Source: a virus (lineage: Duplodnaviria > Heunggongvirae > Uroviricota > Caudoviricetes). Taken from it: 4,116 bases of DNA. The DNA is taken from the IMG/VR virus record IMGVR_UViG_2675903409_000013; one strand, written 5' to 3'. Every line of letters starts with the position of its first letter. Within the stretch, counting starts at the first letter, position 1. The notes beneath the pieces are model-generated. The model worked only from the letters and a program-made list of their open reading frames with translations, did not search any database and had not been told where the DNA came from. The translations under genes and the position numbers were made by a program. Shown here piece by piece: positions 1 to 4,116 of the stretch.

Positions 1-345
1 ACGGTCAGTACAGCGTTATTCTGTTGGTGGAAGGATTCCCGCCGTCACATGCCGGGACCATCACTGTGTATGAAGATTCCCGACCCGGTACGCTGAATGA
101 TTTTCTCGGTGCCATGACGGAGGATGATGCCCGTCCTGAGGCACTGCGCCGTTTTGAACTGATGGTGGAAGAGGTGGCGCGTAACGCGTCCGCGGTGGCA
201 CAGAACACGGCAGCCGCGAAGAAGTCAGCCAGTGATGCCGGCACATCTGCCCGTGAGGCGGCAACCCATGCGACTGATGCTGCAGGCTCAGCGCGTGCAG
301 CCAGCACGTCAGCCGGACAGGCCGCGACTTCGGCTCAGGAGGCGT
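1..345 (+). CDS. stf: Side tail fibre protein (Stf family), N-proximal fragment; 5' partial (open from window start), 3' end interrupted by N-run
   Basis: Frame 3 (codons from nt 3) is open with no stop from nt 3 to 345. Translation GQYSVILLVEGFPPSHAGTITVYEDSRPGTLNDFLGAMTEDDARPEALRRFELMVEEVARNASAVAQNTAAAKKSASDAGTSAREAATHATDAAGSARAASTSAGQAATSAQEA resembles the region around residue 55 onward of phage lambda Stf as I recall it. The ORF-track entry 24..608 is this frame with an arbitrary TTG start; its stop at 606-608 is an artefact of reading through the gap. Confidence 0.8.
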
Positions 346-595
346 NNNNNNNNNNNNNNNNNNNNNNNNNNNNNNNNNNNNNNNNNNNNNNNNNNNNNNN
401 NNNNNNNNNNNNNNNNNNNNNNNNNNNNNNNNNNNNNNNNNNNNNNNNNNNNNNNNNNNNNNNNNNNNNNNNNNNNNNNNNNNNNNNNNNNNNNNNNNNN
501 NNNNNNNNNNNNNNNNNNNNNNNNNNNNNNNNNNNNNNNNNNNNNNNNNNNNNNNNNNNNNNNNNNNNNNNNNNNNNNNNNNNNNNNNNNNNNNN
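346..595. other. Assembly/scaffold gap (run of 250 N)
   Basis: Uninterrupted N characters. Flanks are near-identical overlapping sequence (105-345 vs 596-836), and the reading frame differs across the run (frame 3 before, frame 2 after), so the N length is not a true distance. Confidence 0.95.
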
Positions 596-836
596 CTCGG
601 TGCCATGACGGAGGATGATGCCCGTCCTGAGGCACTGCGCCGTTTTGAACTGATGGTGGAAGAGGTGGCGCGTAACGCGTCCGCGGTGGCACAGAACACG
701 GCAGCCGCGAAGAAGTCAGCCAGCGATGCCAGCACATCAGCCCGTGAGGCGGCAACCCATGCGACTGATGCTGCAGGCTCAGCACGCGCAGCCAGCACGT
801 CAGCCGGACAGGCCGCGTCGTCGGCTCAGTCAGCAT
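596..836 (+). repeat. Near-identical second copy of 105-345 (segmental duplication or contig-end overlap across gap 1)
   Basis: Direct comparison: about 7 substitutions over the first ~233 bp (e.g. agTgatgccGgcacatcTgcc vs agCgatgccAgcacatcAgcc); the last ~8 bp of block A diverge. Both copies encode LGAMTEDDARPEALRRFELMVEEVARNAS... Confidence 0.9.
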
Positions 837-2049
837 CTTCCAGCGCAGGAACGGCATCAACAAAGGCCAGTGAAGCATCGAAAAGTGCTGCTGCTGCAGA
901 GTCCTCAAAAAGCGCGGCGGCCACCAGTGCCGGTGCGGCGAAAACGTCAGAAACGAATGCTTCAGCGTCACAACAATCAGCAGCCACATCTGCATCCACC
1001 GCGACCACGAAGGCATCAGAAGCTGCGACCTCGGCCCGGGATGCGGCGGCCTCAAAAGAAGCGGCAAAATCATCAGAAACGAACGCATCATCAAGCGCCA
1101 GTAGTGCAGCTTCCTCGGCAACGGCGGCAGGAAATTCCGCGAAGGCGGCAAAAACGTCCGAGACGAACGCCAGGTCTTCTGAAACGGCAGCGGGACAGAG
1201 CGCCTCGGCTGCGGCAGGCTCAAAAACAGCGGCTGCGTCGTCTGCCAGTGCAGCGTCAACAAGTGCCGGGCAGGCCTCAGCCAGTGCCACCGCCGCCGGA
1301 AAATCGGCAGAAAGCGCCGCATCATCCGCTTCAACAGCCACAACGAAGGCTGGCGAAGCCACTGAACAGGCCAGCGCAGCAGCGAGGTCTGCTTCCGCAG
1401 CGAAGACATCCGAAACGAACGCGAAAGCGTCGGAAACAAGCGCAGAATCCTCAAAAACGGCTGCCGCATCGTCAGCCAGTTCGGCGGCGTCATCGGCATC
1501 ATCGGCGTCTGCTTCAAAAGATGAGGCGACCAGACAAGCGTCAGCAGCGAAGAGCAGCGCCACGACGGCATCCACGAAGGCGACAGAGGCTGCTGGCAGT
1601 GCGACGGCGGCAGCTCAGAGCAAAAGTACGGCGGAATCCGCGGCAACGCGCGCCGAGACAGCAGCAAAACGGGCAGAGGATATTGCATCCGCCGTGGCGC
1701 TTGAGGATGCGAGCACGACGAAAAAGGGGATAGTACAGCTCAGCAGTGCGACCAACAGCACTTCCGAGTCACTGGCGGCAACGCCAAAGGCAGTAAAAGC
1801 AGCCTATGACAATGCAGAGAAACGTCTGCAGAAAGACCAGAACGGTGCTGATATCCCCGACAAGGGCCGCTTCCTGAATAACATTAATGTTTACAGCAAA
1901 GGTGAAGTGGATAAGAAAAAGGGGATGCGAAAATACACTTTCTCTGCTCCTGCAAATGCAGTAAGCGGTAAGTGGTATCCTATAGTCTTTCGCCGATCTG
2001 GAGGCGGTACCGATGAATTAGCCTCACGAGTTGTGATAACTACTTATTC
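596..2049 (+). CDS. stf: Side tail fibre protein (Stf family), shaft region plus start of an alternative distal domain; interrupted at both ends by N-runs
   Basis: Frame 2 (codons at 596, 599, ...) has no stop from 596 to 2049. Translation begins LGAMTEDDARPEALRRFELMVEEVARNAS (same as block A), continues through about 336 aa of Ala/Ser/Thr-rich heptad-periodic sequence, then [30 protein letters not shown] (conserved phage tail-fibre repeat), then NAEKRLQKDQNGADIPDKGRFLNNINVYSKGEVDKKKGMRKYTFSAPANAVSGKWYPIVFRRSGGGTDELASRVVITTYS. This frame is absent from the ORF track, presumably because it has no in-window stop. Confidence 0.8.
689..1696 (+). repeat. Heptad-periodic (21-nt period) Ala/Ser/Thr-rich coding repeat array, 48 heptads, consensus x-(S/T)-S-A-x-x-A
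   Basis: Hand translation of frame 2: every 7th codon from 707 to 1673 is a GCN Ala codon (47 consecutive heptads). The position 3 residues earlier is mostly Ala (otherwise E/K) and the one before that mostly Ser. Nucleotide sub-repeats of the form AAAACGTC(A/C)GA(A/G)ACGAA(C/T)GC recur at 938, 1064, 1148 and 1400, spaced by multiples of 42 nt. Confidence 0.75.
1724..1810 (+). repeat. Single conserved phage tail-fibre repeat unit ([29 protein letters not shown]) in block B
   Basis: Translation in frame 2. The motif is the conserved tail-fibre repeat shared among lambdoid/P2/T-even tail fibre proteins (Pfam 'phage tail fibre repeat' family, from memory). Confidence 0.75.
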
Positions 2050-2320: not shown

Positions 2321-2606
2321 GCGTCATCGGCATCATCTGCGTCTGCTTCAAAAGATGAGGCGACCAGACAGGCGTCAGCAGCGAGGGGCAGCGCCACGAC
2401 GGCATCCACGAAGGCGACAGAGGCTGCTGGCAGTGCGGCAGCGGCAGCACAGAGCAAAAGTACGGCGGAATCCGCGGCAACGCGCGCCGAGACAGCAGCA
2501 AAACGGGCAGAGGATATTGCATCCGCCGTGGCGCTTGAGGATGCGAGCACGACGAAAAAGGGGATAGTACAGCTCAGCAGTGCGACCAACAGCACTTCCG
2601 AGTCAC
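2321..2606 (+). repeat. Near-identical second copy of 1487-1772 (segmental duplication or contig-end overlap across gap 2)
   Basis: Direct comparison: 7 substitutions in 286 bp (e.g. catcGgcg/catcTgcg, gaAgAgc/gaGgGgc, gcgAcGgcg/gcgGcAgcg, gcTcag/gcAcag), same reading frame (offset 834 = 3 x 278). The copies diverge right after gagtcac (ctg at 1772 vs cag at 2606). Confidence 0.9.
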
Positions 2607-4116
2607 AGGCGGCAACGCCAAAAGCCGTTAAGGCCGCGTATGACCTGGCTAACGGGAAATACACCGCACAGGATGCAACGACAGCACAGAAAGGGATAGT
2701 TCAGCTCAGCAGTGCGACTAACAGCACTTCCGAGTCACAGGCGGCAACGCCAAAAGCCGTTAAGGCCGCGTATGACCTGGCTAACGGGAAATACACCGCA
2801 CAGGACGCTACGACAGCACAAAAAGGAATTGTCCAGCTCAGTAGTGCAACCAACAGCACATCTGAAACGCTTGCTGCGACACCGAAAGCAGTGAAAGCAG
2901 CTAATGACAATGCGAATGGTCGGGTACCTTCTGCCCGTAAGGTGAATGGTAAGGCGCTTTCAGCGGATATAACACTGACGCCGAAAGATATTGGTACGCT
3001 TAACTCAACAACAATGTCATTCAGCGGTGGTGCTGGTTGGTTCAAATTAGCAACGGTAACCATGCCACAGGCGAGTTCTGTTGTTTCAATTACGTTGATT
3101 GGTGGCGCTGGATTTAACGTGGGGTCACCTCAACAGGCAGGTATATCTGAACTTGTTTTACGTGCAGGTAATGGTAATCCGAAGGGGATTACTGGTGCTT
3201 TATGGCAGCGCACATTGACAGGGTTTACAAATTTTGCCTGGGTTAATACATCTGGTGATACTTACGATATTTACGTTGCAATCGGAAATTATGCGACTGG
3301 TGTAAATATTCAATGGGATTATACCAGTAATGCCAGCGTGACGATTCATACGTCACCAGCATATTCTGCTAATAAGCCGGAAGGGTTAACGGACGGTACA
3401 GTTTATTCACTCTATACGCCATCAGAGCAGTTTTATCCGCCTGGCGCACCAATCCCGTGGCCATCAGATACCGTTCCGTCTGGCTATGCCCTGATGCAGG
3501 GGCAGGCTTTTGACAAATCTGCATACCCGAAACTTGCAGCGGCTTATCCGTCAGGCGTGATCCCTGATATGCGTGGCTGGACGATTAAGGGCAAACCTGC
3601 CAGTGGTCGGGCCGTATTGTCTCAGGAACAGGACGGCATTAAATCGCATACCCACAGCGCCAGCGCATCCAGTACGGATTTGGGGACGAAAACCACATCG
3701 TCGTTTGATTACGGCACTAAATCCACGAATAACACTGGTGCGCATACCCATAGTTTAAGTGGCAGCACGAATGCAGCTGGTAATCACAGCCATAGAGATG
3801 GCCGTCGATTTAACCCCAGTGTTTTTAAAGATACTTATCAATATGGTTATACAAGCTCAGGTCAAAATACCTGGGGTGTACAAGGCTCAGTAGGTATGTC
3901 TACGGGGTGGTTAGCGAATACCAGTACAGATGGTAATCATAGCCACTCACTGTCCGGCACAGCAGCATCTGCAGGTGCACACGCGCATACTGTCGGTATT
4001 GGTGCTCATACGCACTCCGTTGCGATTGGTTCACATGGACATACCATCACCGTTAACGCTGCGGGTAACGCGGAAAACACCGTCAAAAACATCGCATTTA
4101 ACTATATTGTGAGGCT
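2321..4116 (+). CDS. stf: Side tail fibre protein (Stf family), distal shaft and C-terminal receptor-binding/tip region; 3' partial (runs off window end)
   Basis: Frame 2 is open from 2321 to 4116. Translation contains three tandem [25 protein letters not shown] units, then [80 protein letters not shown] ... [62 protein letters not shown]. This closely matches my recollection of the lambda Stf C-terminus, which ends ...FNYIVRLA, so the stop is expected 1-2 codons past the window. Confidence 0.85.
2558..2953 (+). repeat. Three tandem 132-bp (44-codon) tail-fibre repeat units: 2558-2689, 2690-2821, 2822-~2953 (third diverged)
   Basis: Units 1 and 2 both encode [44 protein letters not shown] and differ at 6 nucleotide positions, all synonymous third positions (aag/aaa, gta/gtt, acc/act, gat/gac, gca/gct, cag/caa). 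Unit 3 encodes [44 protein letters not shown]... with heavily recoded codons. Confidence 0.85.
3644..4045 (+). other. His-rich distal tip with seven H-x-H motifs (SHTHS, GAHTHS, GNHSHR, GNHSHS, GAHAHT, GAHTHS, GSHGHT); putative metal-binding needle-like region
   Basis: Motifs read directly from the frame-2 translation at about 3647-3655, 3743-3751, 3785-3793, 3938-3946, 3980-3988, 4007-4015 and 4034-4042. Similar H-x-H repeats in the T4 gp37 distal tip coordinate iron ions in the published crystal structure (from memory). Confidence 0.6.

What the first reader, a model, noticed from the sequence alone, without database searches (positions are those of the whole stretch)
644..1696. Uninterrupted heptad register in the shaft: Ala at every 7th residue for 47 consecutive heptads
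In frame 2 the codons at 707 + 21k (k = 0 to 46) are all GCN. The three preceding register positions (644, 665, 686) are F, V, V and the following one (1694) is V. The residue 3 positions before each of these Ala is Ala in most heptads, otherwise E or K. This is a strict 3-4 spaced small/hydrophobic pattern over about 340 residues, pointing to a long alanine-cored coiled coil, probably trimeric, or a comparably regular fibrous fold. The regularity is far beyond what low-complexity composition alone would give, and I am not aware that this strict register has been pointed out for Stf proteins. It also explains the spurious long ORFs in other frames and why the region is hard to assemble.
Basis: seen in the sequence. 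Interest (0 to 1): 0.5.

Follow-up and report, generated by a model that had tools for sequence, protein, structure and literature searches.

The report
Alanine-heptad coiled-coil shaft of Stf
The perfectly regular alanine-every-seventh-residue stretch is real and is the thin three-stranded alpha-helical rod of a lambda-type prophage side tail fibre, a module that has been described before and is common in E. coli and in many other phage fibres.

Summary
In frame 2, codons 707+21k (k=0-46) are all GCN, flanked in register by F, V, V and V. This gives 51 unbroken heptads (nt 635-1705, 357 aa) with consensus [A/K/E]-[S/T]-x-A-x-[T/S]-S. Composition cannot explain it: residue shuffles reach a run of 14 at most. 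There is also no 21-nt tandem DNA array.

It is the shaft between the collar-binding N-terminal domain (PF08400) and the Phage_fiber_2 repeat of a lambda-type Stf. DNA 96-97.5% identical occurs in complete E. coli genomes.

The coiled-coil reading is supported but not new:
- Ghosh et al. 2012 described the homologous "PCoil" domain as an Ala-X-X-Ala/Ser-X-X-Ser heptad. It was alpha-helical by CD and trimeric, with lengths differing by multiples of seven.
- The 2025 Ur-lambda study models Stf 102-393 as a trimeric coiled coil.
- T5 pb1 and DT57C LtfA carry related shafts.

My additions:
- Shaft length variants are single in-register block indels of 15-22 heptads. For the two I mapped, the breakpoints lie at internal direct repeats.
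- The same heptad occurs behind several different N-termini, with runs up to 71.

The side claims are only partly right. Codon composition, not heptad order, explains two of the open alternative frames. The assembly breaks fit multi-copy prophage paralogues better. Low novelty.

The parts
635..1705 (+). Shaft: 51 uninterrupted heptads (357 aa), LRRFELM ... ASAVALE. Predicted three-stranded parallel alpha-helical coiled coil about 53 nm long.
   Evidence: Register table. Fourier and shuffle tests. AF2 single helix over residues 9-384 of the 596-1750 protein. Homologous to lambda Stf residues 103-354, which form 36 heptads.
707..1675 (+). Run of 47 consecutive d-position alanine codons, one every 21 nt.
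   Evidence: Codon mix GCG16/GCA15/GCC11/GCT5.
596..730 (+). C-terminal end of the 'prophage tail fibre N-terminal' domain (PF08400 positions 90-134). It comprises the linker LGAMTEDDARPEA and the first heptads, whose d positions are F, V, V.
   Evidence: Pfam hit E 3.4e-14. In the full-length homologue, residues 1-94 match the solved lambda gpStf collar domain 9E7M/9MGH.
1706..1894 (+). End of the shaft: a Phage_fiber_2-type repeat ([22 protein letters not shown]), then a segment like phage Mu tail fibre protein S.
   Evidence: PDB sequence hits 5YVQ/8JU3, E 1e-17 to 1e-19, on query residues 351-433.
904..1486 (+). Dispersed in-register direct repeats inside the shaft. Family D6 is at 904-940, 1219-1255 and 1450-1486. 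Family D2 is at 935-964, 1061-1090, 1145-1174 and 1397-1426. Spacings between these copies are multiples of 21 nt. They are breakpoints of natural length variants.
   Evidence: the repeat finder. The block indels of homologues map to nt 1061-1396 (P0004) and nt 935-1249 (P0012).
24..345 (+). Separate contig in frame 3: the end of the N-terminal domain plus the first ~11 heptads of a second, 97% identical stf copy.
   Evidence: ORF list. Pfam PF08400 E 3e-34. Repeat D4, 105-338 against 596-829.
2321..2539 (+). Third contig: the last ~10 heptads of another stf copy, 97% identical to 1487-1705.
   Evidence: Repeat D3. Translation.
2538..2933 (+). Three tandem 132-nt (44-aa) Phage_fiber_2 repeats that follow the shaft in the third contig.
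   Evidence: TRF period 132. Repeat D1. Pfam PF03406 E 1.2e-56.
2934..4116 (+). Distal receptor-binding part of the fibre. It has a Collar domain at about 3443-3586 and a His-rich Phage_fiber repeat at about 3728-3769. It runs off the window end.
   Evidence: Pfam PF07484 and PF03335. The translation of this part matches, nearly residue for residue, the distal part of the 1156-aa protein translated from L001 (read, not formally aligned).

Best explanation
Nucleotides 635-1705 encode the proximal shaft of a lambda-type side tail fibre (Stf) of an E. coli prophage. Three identical chains each form one continuous alpha-helix of 51 heptads. They wind into a parallel, left-handed, three-stranded coiled coil. 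Its core is made almost only of alanine: d is Ala in 47 of the 51 heptads (F, V, V at the start and V at the end) and a is Ala in 70% of the 47. The flanking g position is Ser in 79%, and the outer face is Ser/Thr-rich. Because the core residues are so small, the rod should be unusually thin. Each heptad contributes little stability, so folding would rely on the great length and on the trimerising domains at the ends. The rod would hold the receptor-binding tip roughly 53 nm (357 aa x ~0.148 nm) from the tail collar. Because every heptad is near-equivalent, recombination between in-register internal DNA repeats adds or removes whole heptads. This yields fibres of different length without breaking the fold. 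Shown here: the sequence pattern, its statistical significance, helix prediction, homology, and quantised length variation. Taken from the literature on homologues: alpha-helicity, trimer state, rod shape. Inferred: thinness, stability logic, and any adaptive role of length.
For: Pattern and statistics. No DNA tandem array and mixed synonymous codons, so the constraint is at the protein level. AF2 monomer from a single sequence gives one helix over 9-384 with mean pLDDT 72.6. Context: PF08400 lies upstream and Phage_fiber_2/Collar downstream. The 97.5% identical complete gene (1156 aa) sits in the order J-lom-stf-tfa. Its residues 1-94 match the solved lambda gpStf collar domain. Lambda Stf has the same register for 36 heptads from residue 103, and PMC12617516 models residues 102-393 as the trimeric proximal coiled coil seen by cryo-ET. 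A Stx2-phage EPclA-type fibre has the identical junction LRRFELM VEEVARH followed by about 18 more heptads in the same register (d is Ala in all but one, which is Ser) before its collagen repeats. PMC3368898 showed for that protein type alpha-helical CD, a reversible melt at about 49-52 C, a trimer by SEC-MALLS/AUC, and a ~16 nm rod by EM. Register conservation: 27 distinct shafts of 19-51 heptads are in register and 1 is out of register. Across all their heptads d is A 88%, V 8%, F 3%, and never charged. Five homologues differ from the window by a single block indel of 105, 112, 119, 154 and 105 aa, all multiples of 7; a sixth, P0071, is the out-of-register exception (145 aa). Two breakpoints fall at direct repeats D2 and D6. 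Related shafts: sequence similarity (E 3e-19) to a protein with the DT57C LtfA N-terminus. The start of the LtfA helix is seen as a three-helix coiled coil by cryo-EM (PMC10713586). T5 pb1 residues 41-218 are described as a straight coiled coil (PMC12750041).
Against: No atomic structure exists for any Ala-heptad shaft. The PDB holds only lambda Stf residues 1-94, and the only sequence hit of the shaft is a weak one to T7 gp17. The lambda model is AlphaFold3 fitted to low-resolution tomograms, and AF3 folds the full-length protein back on itself. I could not run a multimer prediction, and the monomer model has pTM 0.26 with confidence dips near residues 165 and 295. An engineered all-alanine core (Lpp Ala-14) crystallises as a trimer but is largely unfolded in solution (as cited in PMC4137666), so stability of a pure Ala core is not self-evident. 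12 of 47 a positions are Lys or Glu. The experimental PCoil domain is shorter and more charged than this shaft.
Confidence: 0.85

Rival explanations
1. The helices pack antiparallel, as an Alacoil-like hairpin or a three-helix fold-back within one chain, rather than as a parallel homotrimer. Ala at every seventh residue is the published signature of the tight antiparallel Alacoil.
For: Ala at every 7th residue. The AF2 monomer shows confidence dips near residues 165 and 295, which could be turns. AF3 folds full-length lambda Stf back on itself (PMC12617516). The Alacoil and x-da core idea is discussed for Ala-rich silk coiled coils (PMC12284834).
Against: Cryo-ET shows extended lambda side fibres, with the N-termini in the collar and the tip distal, and the authors rejected the folded AF3 model. 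PfN-PCoil is a trimer with a ~16 nm tail, which fits an extended rod of about 110 residues. DT57C LtfA helices leave the collar as a parallel three-helix bundle. DSSP of the AF2 model shows no break in the helix.
Confidence: 0.05
2. The region is an intrinsically disordered, low-complexity Ala/Ser/Thr linker. The periodicity is a relic of repeat amplification without structural meaning.
For: Composition is 75% A+S+T. No Pfam or NCBIfam model covers it. Dispersed internal DNA repeats show some duplication history.
Against: The register is kept over 51 heptads with mixed synonymous codons and no tandem DNA array. Five of six mapped length variants are whole-heptad indels, and 27 of 28 distinct shafts are in register. 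The d position never takes a charged or large polar residue in 947 heptads. AF2 predicts helix. The homologous domain gives a strong alpha-helical CD signal with a cooperative melt.
Confidence: 0.04
3. The shaft is a regular non-helical fibrous fold, such as a triple beta-helix or beta-spiral as in other phage fibre and spike shafts.
For: Many phage fibre shafts are beta-structured.
Against: The dominant period is 3.5 residues, which is the alpha-helical signature. AF2 predicts helix. The CD of the homologue is alpha-helical. There are no Gly/Pro or alternating hydrophobic patterns.
Confidence: 0.02
4. It is a three-stranded helical rod, but with a non-canonical core. The helices would be rotated so that the invariant Ala points straight at the axis (an x layer), flanked by Ser (g) and Ala/Glu/Lys (a), as an x-da arrangement rather than alternating a/d knobs-into-holes.
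For: Conservation is centred on one position: d Ala 100%, g Ser 79%, a Ala 70%. In related T5-like shafts the a position is mostly Glu (AKTSETN repeats), which leaves only one Ala per heptad. The consensus across 6,073 heptads of other fibre proteins is the same.
Against: The Ala density on the helical wheel is centred between columns 0 and 3, as expected for an ordinary a/d core. The recent honeybee-silk model found canonical a/d packing despite the same earlier speculation (PMC12284834). No coordinates are available to test it.
Confidence: 0.2

Closest known systems
PCoil domain of E. coli prophage collagen-like tail-fibre proteins EPclA/EPclB (Ghosh et al. 2012, PMC3368898)
   Same: It sits at the same place, directly after the PF08400 N-terminal domain. 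The junction sequence is identical (LRRFELM VEEVAR.) and the heptad register is the same. It is an Ala/Ser-rich Ala-X-X-Ala/Ser-X-X-Ser heptad, and lengths differ by multiples of seven. It was shown experimentally to be alpha-helical and trimeric.
   Different: PCoil was described as 'loosely' periodic. It is much shorter, roughly 15-20 heptads against 51. It is richer in Glu (13%), and it is followed by a collagen triple helix instead of Phage_fiber_2 repeats and a gp37-like tip.
Proximal coiled-coil domain of bacteriophage lambda Stf (residues 102-393; Ur-lambda study, PMC12617516)
   Same: It is an orthologous protein. DNA identity over the first 505 nt is 86%. The N-terminal collar domain is the same, and so are the shaft start and register. 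It is modelled as a homotrimer fitted to cryo-ET density.
   Different: Lambda has 36 heptads, and its d run is broken once by Val at heptad 6. The window has 51 heptads. The difference is one 105-aa (15-heptad) block. The paper does not mention alanine or heptads.
Coiled-coil shafts of T5 pb1 (residues 41-218) and DT57C LtfA L-shaped tail fibres
   Same: There is significant sequence similarity between the shafts (phrog_24369 hit). They share motifs such as AKTSETNA. A trimeric three-helix bundle is seen at the collar by cryo-EM, and a straight rod is seen in EM.
   Different: The N-terminal anchor is different, and attachment is through the LtfC/p132 collar. The a position is mostly Glu rather than Ala, and the shafts are shorter.
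Alanine-zipper trimers: Lpp-56 and its Ala-14 mutant (PDB 1EQ7, 1JCD; Liu & Lu 2002 as cited in PMC4137666)
   Same: A parallel three-stranded coiled coil with Ala at both a and d has been shown by crystallography to be a possible packing.
   Different: These proteins are unrelated. They are 56 residues long and engineered. The all-Ala version is unstable in solution, whereas the fibre shaft is natural and about 6 times longer.
T7 gp17 proximal half-fibre
   Same: It is the only PDB sequence hit of the shaft (E 0.036, gp17 residues 173-267). It is described as a dynamic triple-helical coiled coil from AFM, AlphaFold and MD (bioRxiv 10.1101/2025.10.22.683886).
   Different: The similarity is weak. 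The sequence is richer in Asn, Glu and Arg. The region is not resolved in the deposited structures either.

Membership tests
Lambda-type side tail fibre (Stf) | N-terminal collar-binding domain (Pfam PF08400, prophage tail fibre N-terminal) | tested here: met
   PF08400 E 3e-34 on 24-344 and E 3.4e-14 on the start of 596-2047. In the 97.5% identical full-length homologue, residues 1-94 match the lambda gpStf chain of 9E7M/9MGH, E 4e-53.
Lambda-type side tail fibre (Stf) | Gene order J - lom - stf - tfa in a lambdoid tail module | tested here: met
   This is not visible in the window itself. It is met in the closest complete genome (NZ_CP054191) and in lambda.
Lambda-type side tail fibre (Stf) | Phage_fiber_2 repeat(s) after the shaft, and a distal Collar / His-rich gp37-like tip | tested here: met
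   PF03406, PF07484 and PF03335 on 2321-4114. The [14 protein letters not shown] motif is at 1727 onward. Contig B and contig C come from different gene copies.
PCoil domain (Ghosh et al. 2012) | Low-complexity Ala/Ser-rich segment directly after PfN, with Ala-X-X-Ala/Ser-X-X-Ser seven-residue periodicity | tested here: met
   Consensus A-[S/T]-x-A-x-[T/S]-S. The junction and register are the same as in an EPclA-type protein.
PCoil domain (Ghosh et al. 2012) | Length differences between members are multiples of seven residues | tested here: met
   27 of 28 distinct shafts are in register, with 19-51 heptads. Five of six mapped block indels are 105, 112, 119, 154 and 105 aa. One exception is P0071, at 145 aa.
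PCoil domain (Ghosh et al. 2012) | Alpha-helical CD spectrum, trimer in solution, rod in EM | not testable with these tools
   Only the literature on the homologue is available. AF2 predicts helix for this sequence.
Canonical alpha-helical coiled coil | Heptad (3.5-residue) periodicity of apolar residues without a break | tested here: met
   Fourier peak at 3.5 with power 43-48, against a shuffle maximum of 12.6. There are no stutters or stammers in 51 heptads.
Canonical alpha-helical coiled coil | Large hydrophobic residues (Leu/Ile/Val) at a and d | tested here: not met
   The 47 core heptads contain no Leu, Val, Phe or Met and one Ile, at g. The a and d positions are Ala, with Lys/Glu at 12 a positions.
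Canonical alpha-helical coiled coil | Knobs-into-holes packing, with defined oligomer state and orientation | not testable with these tools
   No multimer prediction or coordinates were available.
Alanine zipper (parallel trimer with Ala at a and d, as in Lpp-56 Ala-14) | Ala at both a and d over consecutive heptads | tested here: inconclusive
   d is Ala in 47/47 and a is Ala in 33/47, with Lys, Glu, Thr or Gln in the rest. The packing was not tested.
Alacoil (tight antiparallel helix pair) | Small residue at every seventh position | tested here: met
Alacoil (tight antiparallel helix pair) | Antiparallel helix orientation | not testable with these tools
   The literature on homologous fibres indicates parallel chains: N-termini in the collar and an extended rod.
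DNA tandem repeat / minisatellite | Head-to-tail copies recognisable at the DNA level | tested here: not met
   TRF finds no array with period 21 or a multiple in 635-1705, even at minimum score 30. Only dispersed repeats of 20-37 nt at 60-83% identity are present.

The most novel reading that the evidence does not exclude
The invariant-alanine heptad [A/E]-[T/S]-x-A-x-T-S defines a distinct and so far uncatalogued shaft module: no Pfam or NCBIfam model covers it and no atomic structure exists. It would be an ultra-thin trimeric coiled coil, possibly with x-da rather than a/d core geometry. Phages of unrelated tail types would reuse it behind several different anchor domains. Its length would be tuned in whole-heptad steps, by recombination at in-register internal repeats, to match the depth of the host's surface layers.
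Probability: 0.25. Interest if true: 0.45.

Novelty: already known. Interest (0 to 1): 0.2.

Why it matters
There is little here for discovery. The gene is a common E. coli prophage side tail fibre, and its shaft type has been characterised as a trimeric Ala/Ser-rich heptad coiled coil since 2012.

Some value remains:
- It is a clean natural example of a very long (51 heptads here, up to at least 71 elsewhere), unbroken, almost purely alanine-cored coiled coil. No atomic structure exists for this type, and the only engineered analogue is unstable.
- The whole-heptad length variants, with breakpoints at internal repeats, give a simple rule for engineering fibre length in lambda-based delivery vectors.
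- A profile model of this shaft would improve annotation of many fibre proteins that currently have no domain assignment over this region.

Tried and rejected
1. DNA tandem-repeat origin. TRF at a low threshold found nothing with period 21, so I rejected it.

2. Solved structure of the shaft. Sequence searches of the PDB with the contig-B protein and with the shaft alone gave only Mu S (which matches a region beyond the shaft) and a weak T7 gp17 hit. The lambda entries 9E7M/9MGH hold only residues 1-94.

3. Domain libraries. Pfam and NCBIfam have no model over the shaft. PHROGs only gives generic 'tail fiber protein' families.

4. Fold search with the AF2 model was not run, because a single long helix matches any long helix. 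A linked-trimer construct was not submitted. The tool returns no coordinates or contacts, so orientation and packing could not have been read from it.

5. Collagen-like repeats in the 267 retrieved proteins. None were found, so the link to the EPcl proteins was made through a Stx2-phage locus instead.

6. A hidden antisense gene as the cause of the open minus-strand frame. This was not adopted. The 97.5% identical homologue has a stop in that frame, and the signal reduces to avoidance of T|A at codon boundaries.

7. Literature searches for an explicit statement of a strict Ala register in Stf. Only Ghosh 2012 describes the heptad, and it calls it 'loose'.

8. The Cyrano locus L003 was not readable from scripts and was dropped.
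Full report
THE WINDOW. The 4116 nt are a scaffold of three contigs separated by N runs at 346-595 and 2050-2320. Contig A (1-345) reads in frame 3. Contigs B (596-2049) and C (2321-4116) read in frame 2. The ends overlap one another at 97% identity: 105-338 with 596-829, and 1487-1786 with 2321-2620. After the shared part, B continues into a segment like phage Mu tail fibre protein S. C continues into three Phage_fiber_2 repeats and a lambda/T4 gp37-like tip. At least two different stf genes are therefore represented. The finding (644-1696) lies wholly inside contig B and is not affected.

OBSERVATION. All 47 frame-2 codons at 707+21k are GCN. The three preceding register positions are F, V, V, the next is V, and then the pattern stops at T and Q. 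Written as heptads, the region is 51 uninterrupted units, LRRFELM ... ASAVALE, at nt 635-1705.

Over the 47 central units the columns are as follows:
- a: A33, K6, E6, T1, Q1
- b: S15, T15, and others
- c: mixed
- d: A47
- e: A16, S11, K7, E5, and others
- f: T15, S14, and others
- g: S37

Ala is 37% of the residues, so 47/47 in a fixed register has P about 8e-21. In 20,000 residue shuffles the longest run averaged 5.4 and never exceeded 14. Fourier power of the Ala indicator is 43 at period 3.5 and 18 at 7.0, against a shuffle maximum of 12.6. DNA self-identity peaks at lag 21, at 0.46 against about 0.35 elsewhere.

Tandem Repeats Finder reports no 21-nt array. The d-position alanines use GCG/GCA/GCC/GCT in the same proportions as all alanines. 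The regularity is therefore a protein-level constraint, not a recent DNA amplification.

WHAT IT IS. The start of contig B and all of contig A match Pfam PF08400 (prophage tail fibre N-terminal). Contig C carries Phage_fiber_2, Collar and Phage_fiber. No Pfam or NCBIfam model covers the shaft itself.

The DNA of 596-2049 matches 4356 of 5426 complete E. coli genomes, with a median of 2 and up to 11 places per genome that has any. The best matches are 97.5% identical and annotated 'prophage tail fiber N-terminal domain-containing protein'. It also matches many lambdoid phages, where the gene is annotated as side tail fiber. In the best genome the gene encodes 1156 aa, sits in the order J-lom-stf-tfa, and has the same 47-Ala run. 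Its residues 1-94 match the solved collar domain of lambda gpStf (9E7M/9MGH).

Lambda's own stf (orf-401) starts the same register at residue 103 and keeps it for 36 heptads. Its d positions are L, V, V at the start, one internal V and a final V, and Ala elsewhere. The feature is thus the proximal shaft of a lambda-type side tail fibre.

STRUCTURE AND MECHANISM. AF2 on the single sequence predicts one continuous helix over residues 9-384 of the 385-aa query. Mean pLDDT is 72.6 and pTM is 0.26, with dips near residues 165 and 295. I could not run a multimer prediction.

Published work on homologues supplies the rest:
- Ghosh et al. 2012 (PMC3368898) studied prophage fibre proteins with the architecture PfN-PCoil-collagen-PfC. 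They described the low-complexity PCoil region as a loose Ala-X-X-Ala/Ser-X-X-Ser heptad that is predicted to be trimeric.
- The same paper showed that PfN-PCoil has an alpha-helical CD spectrum with a reversible transition near 49-52 C, is a trimer, and appears as a ~16 nm tail in rotary-shadowing EM. PCoil lengths differ by multiples of seven.
- I confirmed that such a protein, from a Stx2 phage, has the identical junction (LRRFELM VEEVARH) and about 18 further heptads in the same register before its collagen repeats.
- The 2025 Ur-lambda study (PMC12617516) divides gpStf into the collar domain 1-91, linker 92-101 and a 'proximal coiled-coil domain' 102-393. This is a trimeric bundle modelled with AlphaFold3 segments and fitted to cryo-ET. 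AF3 on the full-length protein folded back on itself, and that model was rejected.

The best-supported mechanism is a parallel homotrimeric alpha-helical coiled coil with an Ala/Ala core and a Ser-lined flank. At about 0.148 nm per residue (textbook value), 51 heptads give about 53 nm, against about 37 nm for lambda.

An all-alanine parallel trimer is sterically possible, as in the Lpp-56 Ala-14 crystal structure. That engineered protein is largely unfolded in solution (as cited in PMC4137666). Stability here presumably comes from length and from the terminal domains. This point is inference.

VARIATION. Among 28 distinct homologous shafts delimited by both anchors, 27 are in register, with 19, 29, 34, 35, 36 or 51 heptads. 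Over their 947 heptads d is A 88%, V 8%, F 3%, with traces of S, L and T and never a charged residue.

Five homologues, including lambda, differ from the window's shaft by one block each: 105, 112, 119, 154 and 105 aa, or 15-22 heptads. Two breakpoints coincide with dispersed direct repeats found independently. The block at nt 1061-1396 lies between copies of repeat D2. The block at nt 935-1249 lies between copies of repeat D6. This points to unequal recombination between in-register repeats.

One sequence, P0071, has a 145-aa deletion, which is -5 modulo 7 and therefore out of register.

SPREAD. A full HMMER scan of 1.84 billion cluster representatives found 995 clusters at E <= 1e-3 and 138 at E <= 1e-10. 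Judging mostly by their first residues, the hits have the same heptad behind quite different N-termini:
- the PfN type;
- a T5/DT57C LtfA type, whose N-terminus matches PDB 8HQZ;
- proteins starting MWYREGTITF, with Gp34_trimer and Peptidase_S74 domains;
- N-termini that resemble T7 gp17 (by inspection only);
- 2000-6000-aa proteins whose N-termini resemble those of gpJ-type central fibres (by inspection only).

In 6073 heptads from non-PfN proteins, selected as runs of at least 12 Ala at spacing 7, the other six columns have the same consensus. Runs reach 71, 54 and 47 in P0218, P0196 and P0199. So the 47-run is neither unique nor the longest.

For DT57C LtfA, cryo-EM shows the helix starting at T40 as a three-helix coiled coil. 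For T5 pb1 the coiled-coil domain 41-218 is straight in EM, although its structure has not been solved. For T7 gp17 the proximal region is described as a dynamic triple coiled coil.

The first concerns the alternative-frame ORFs.
- Codon shuffles reproduce the scarcity of stops in frames +1 and -1: 2 observed in each, against 2.2 and 1.8 expected. Composition, not heptad order, explains those two frames.
- The antisense frame that carries ORF 309..1688 has 0 stops, against 8.6 (codon shuffle) or 7.9 (synonymous shuffle) expected.
- The cause is that NCT codons are never followed by an A-starting codon. T|A at codon boundaries occurs 4 times against 16 expected.
- The boundary T|A ratio is 0.33 in the shaft, against 0.83-0.94 in J, the distal part of stf and tfa.
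- Lambda shows the same bias, and its record annotates the antisense orf206b there.
- The 97.5% identical homologue has one stop in that frame.
- I leave this as an unexplained codon-context bias. The sequences compared are not independent.

The second concerns assembly. Most of the 120 listed database homologues are 'partial' proteins, so contigs do tend to break in this gene. But the internal repeats are short and diverged, whereas the genome-level copies are long and 90-97% identical. Paralogy is the likelier cause.

VERDICT. The coiled-coil interpretation is right, but it was already published for homologues (2012) and for lambda Stf itself (2025). The residual novelty is quantitative: the strictness, the length, and the whole-heptad length variants with their mapped breakpoints. 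The breadth of the module and the absence of any atomic structure or domain model are also worth recording. Interest is low, about 0.2.

Noticed in passing
window 1-345, 596-2049, 2321-4116 (N runs 346-595 and 2050-2320): The window is a chimeric scaffold. The three contigs overlap each other at 97% identity (105-338 with 596-829; 1487-1786 with 2321-2620), and contig A is in a different reading frame. Contig B continues into a Mu-S-like segment, while contig C continues into three Phage_fiber_2 repeats. At least two different prophage stf genes have been strung together.
   Followed up: partly
window 635-1705, minus strand (ORF 309..1688): The antisense frame is completely free of stops, although synonymous-codon shuffles predict about 8. 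T-ending codons are almost never followed by A-starting codons (4 against 16 expected; NCT|A 0 of 28). The boundary T|A ratio is 0.33 in the shaft against 0.83-0.94 in neighbouring genes. Lambda shows the same bias and annotates antisense orf206b at this place. A 97.5% identical homologue has one stop there. The cause is unexplained.
   Followed up: partly
window 904-1486 (repeats at 904-940/1219-1255/1450-1486 and 935-964/1061-1090/1145-1174/1397-1426): These are dispersed direct repeats of 30-37 nt, spaced by multiples of 21 nt. Natural shorter shafts (P0004, P0012) differ from the window by single deletions whose ends fall in these repeats. This suggests unequal recombination as the source of whole-heptad length variants.
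   Followed up: yes
protein P0071 (homologue; corresponds to a deletion of window nt 803-1237): This is the only out-of-register shaft among 28. A 145-aa deletion leaves a 2-residue offset ('SS') in the heptad phase. It comes from a 4.7-Mb contig. Whether this fibre is functional, or forms a local discontinuity such as a beta-layer, is unknown.
   Followed up: no
proteins P0121-P0267 from the representative search (e.g. P0218, P0196, P0199, P0126, P0179, P0144-P0195): The same heptad, [A/E]-[T/S]-x-A-x-T-S with recurring ETNA / ATNA / ASTATTK motifs, occurs in tail-fibre-like proteins with unrelated N-termini. These include very large 2000-6000-aa proteins with up to 14 matching stretches, and a protein with 71 consecutive Ala-at-7 positions. 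No Pfam or NCBIfam model exists for this module.
   Followed up: partly
window 726-1733 (+1 frame ORF) and proteins P0139, P0140, P0176, P0247: Public gene calls starting MRLMLQAQH... are translations of the shifted-frame ORF of this region, some of them fused to in-frame shaft sequence. Frameshifted or mis-called versions of this gene are therefore present in protein databases.
   Followed up: no
window 2538-2933: There are three tandem 132-nt (44-aa) Phage_fiber_2 units at 92% identity in contig C. Contig B and lambda have one at the corresponding place. The copy number of this repeat is a second length-variable element of the fibre.
   Followed up: no
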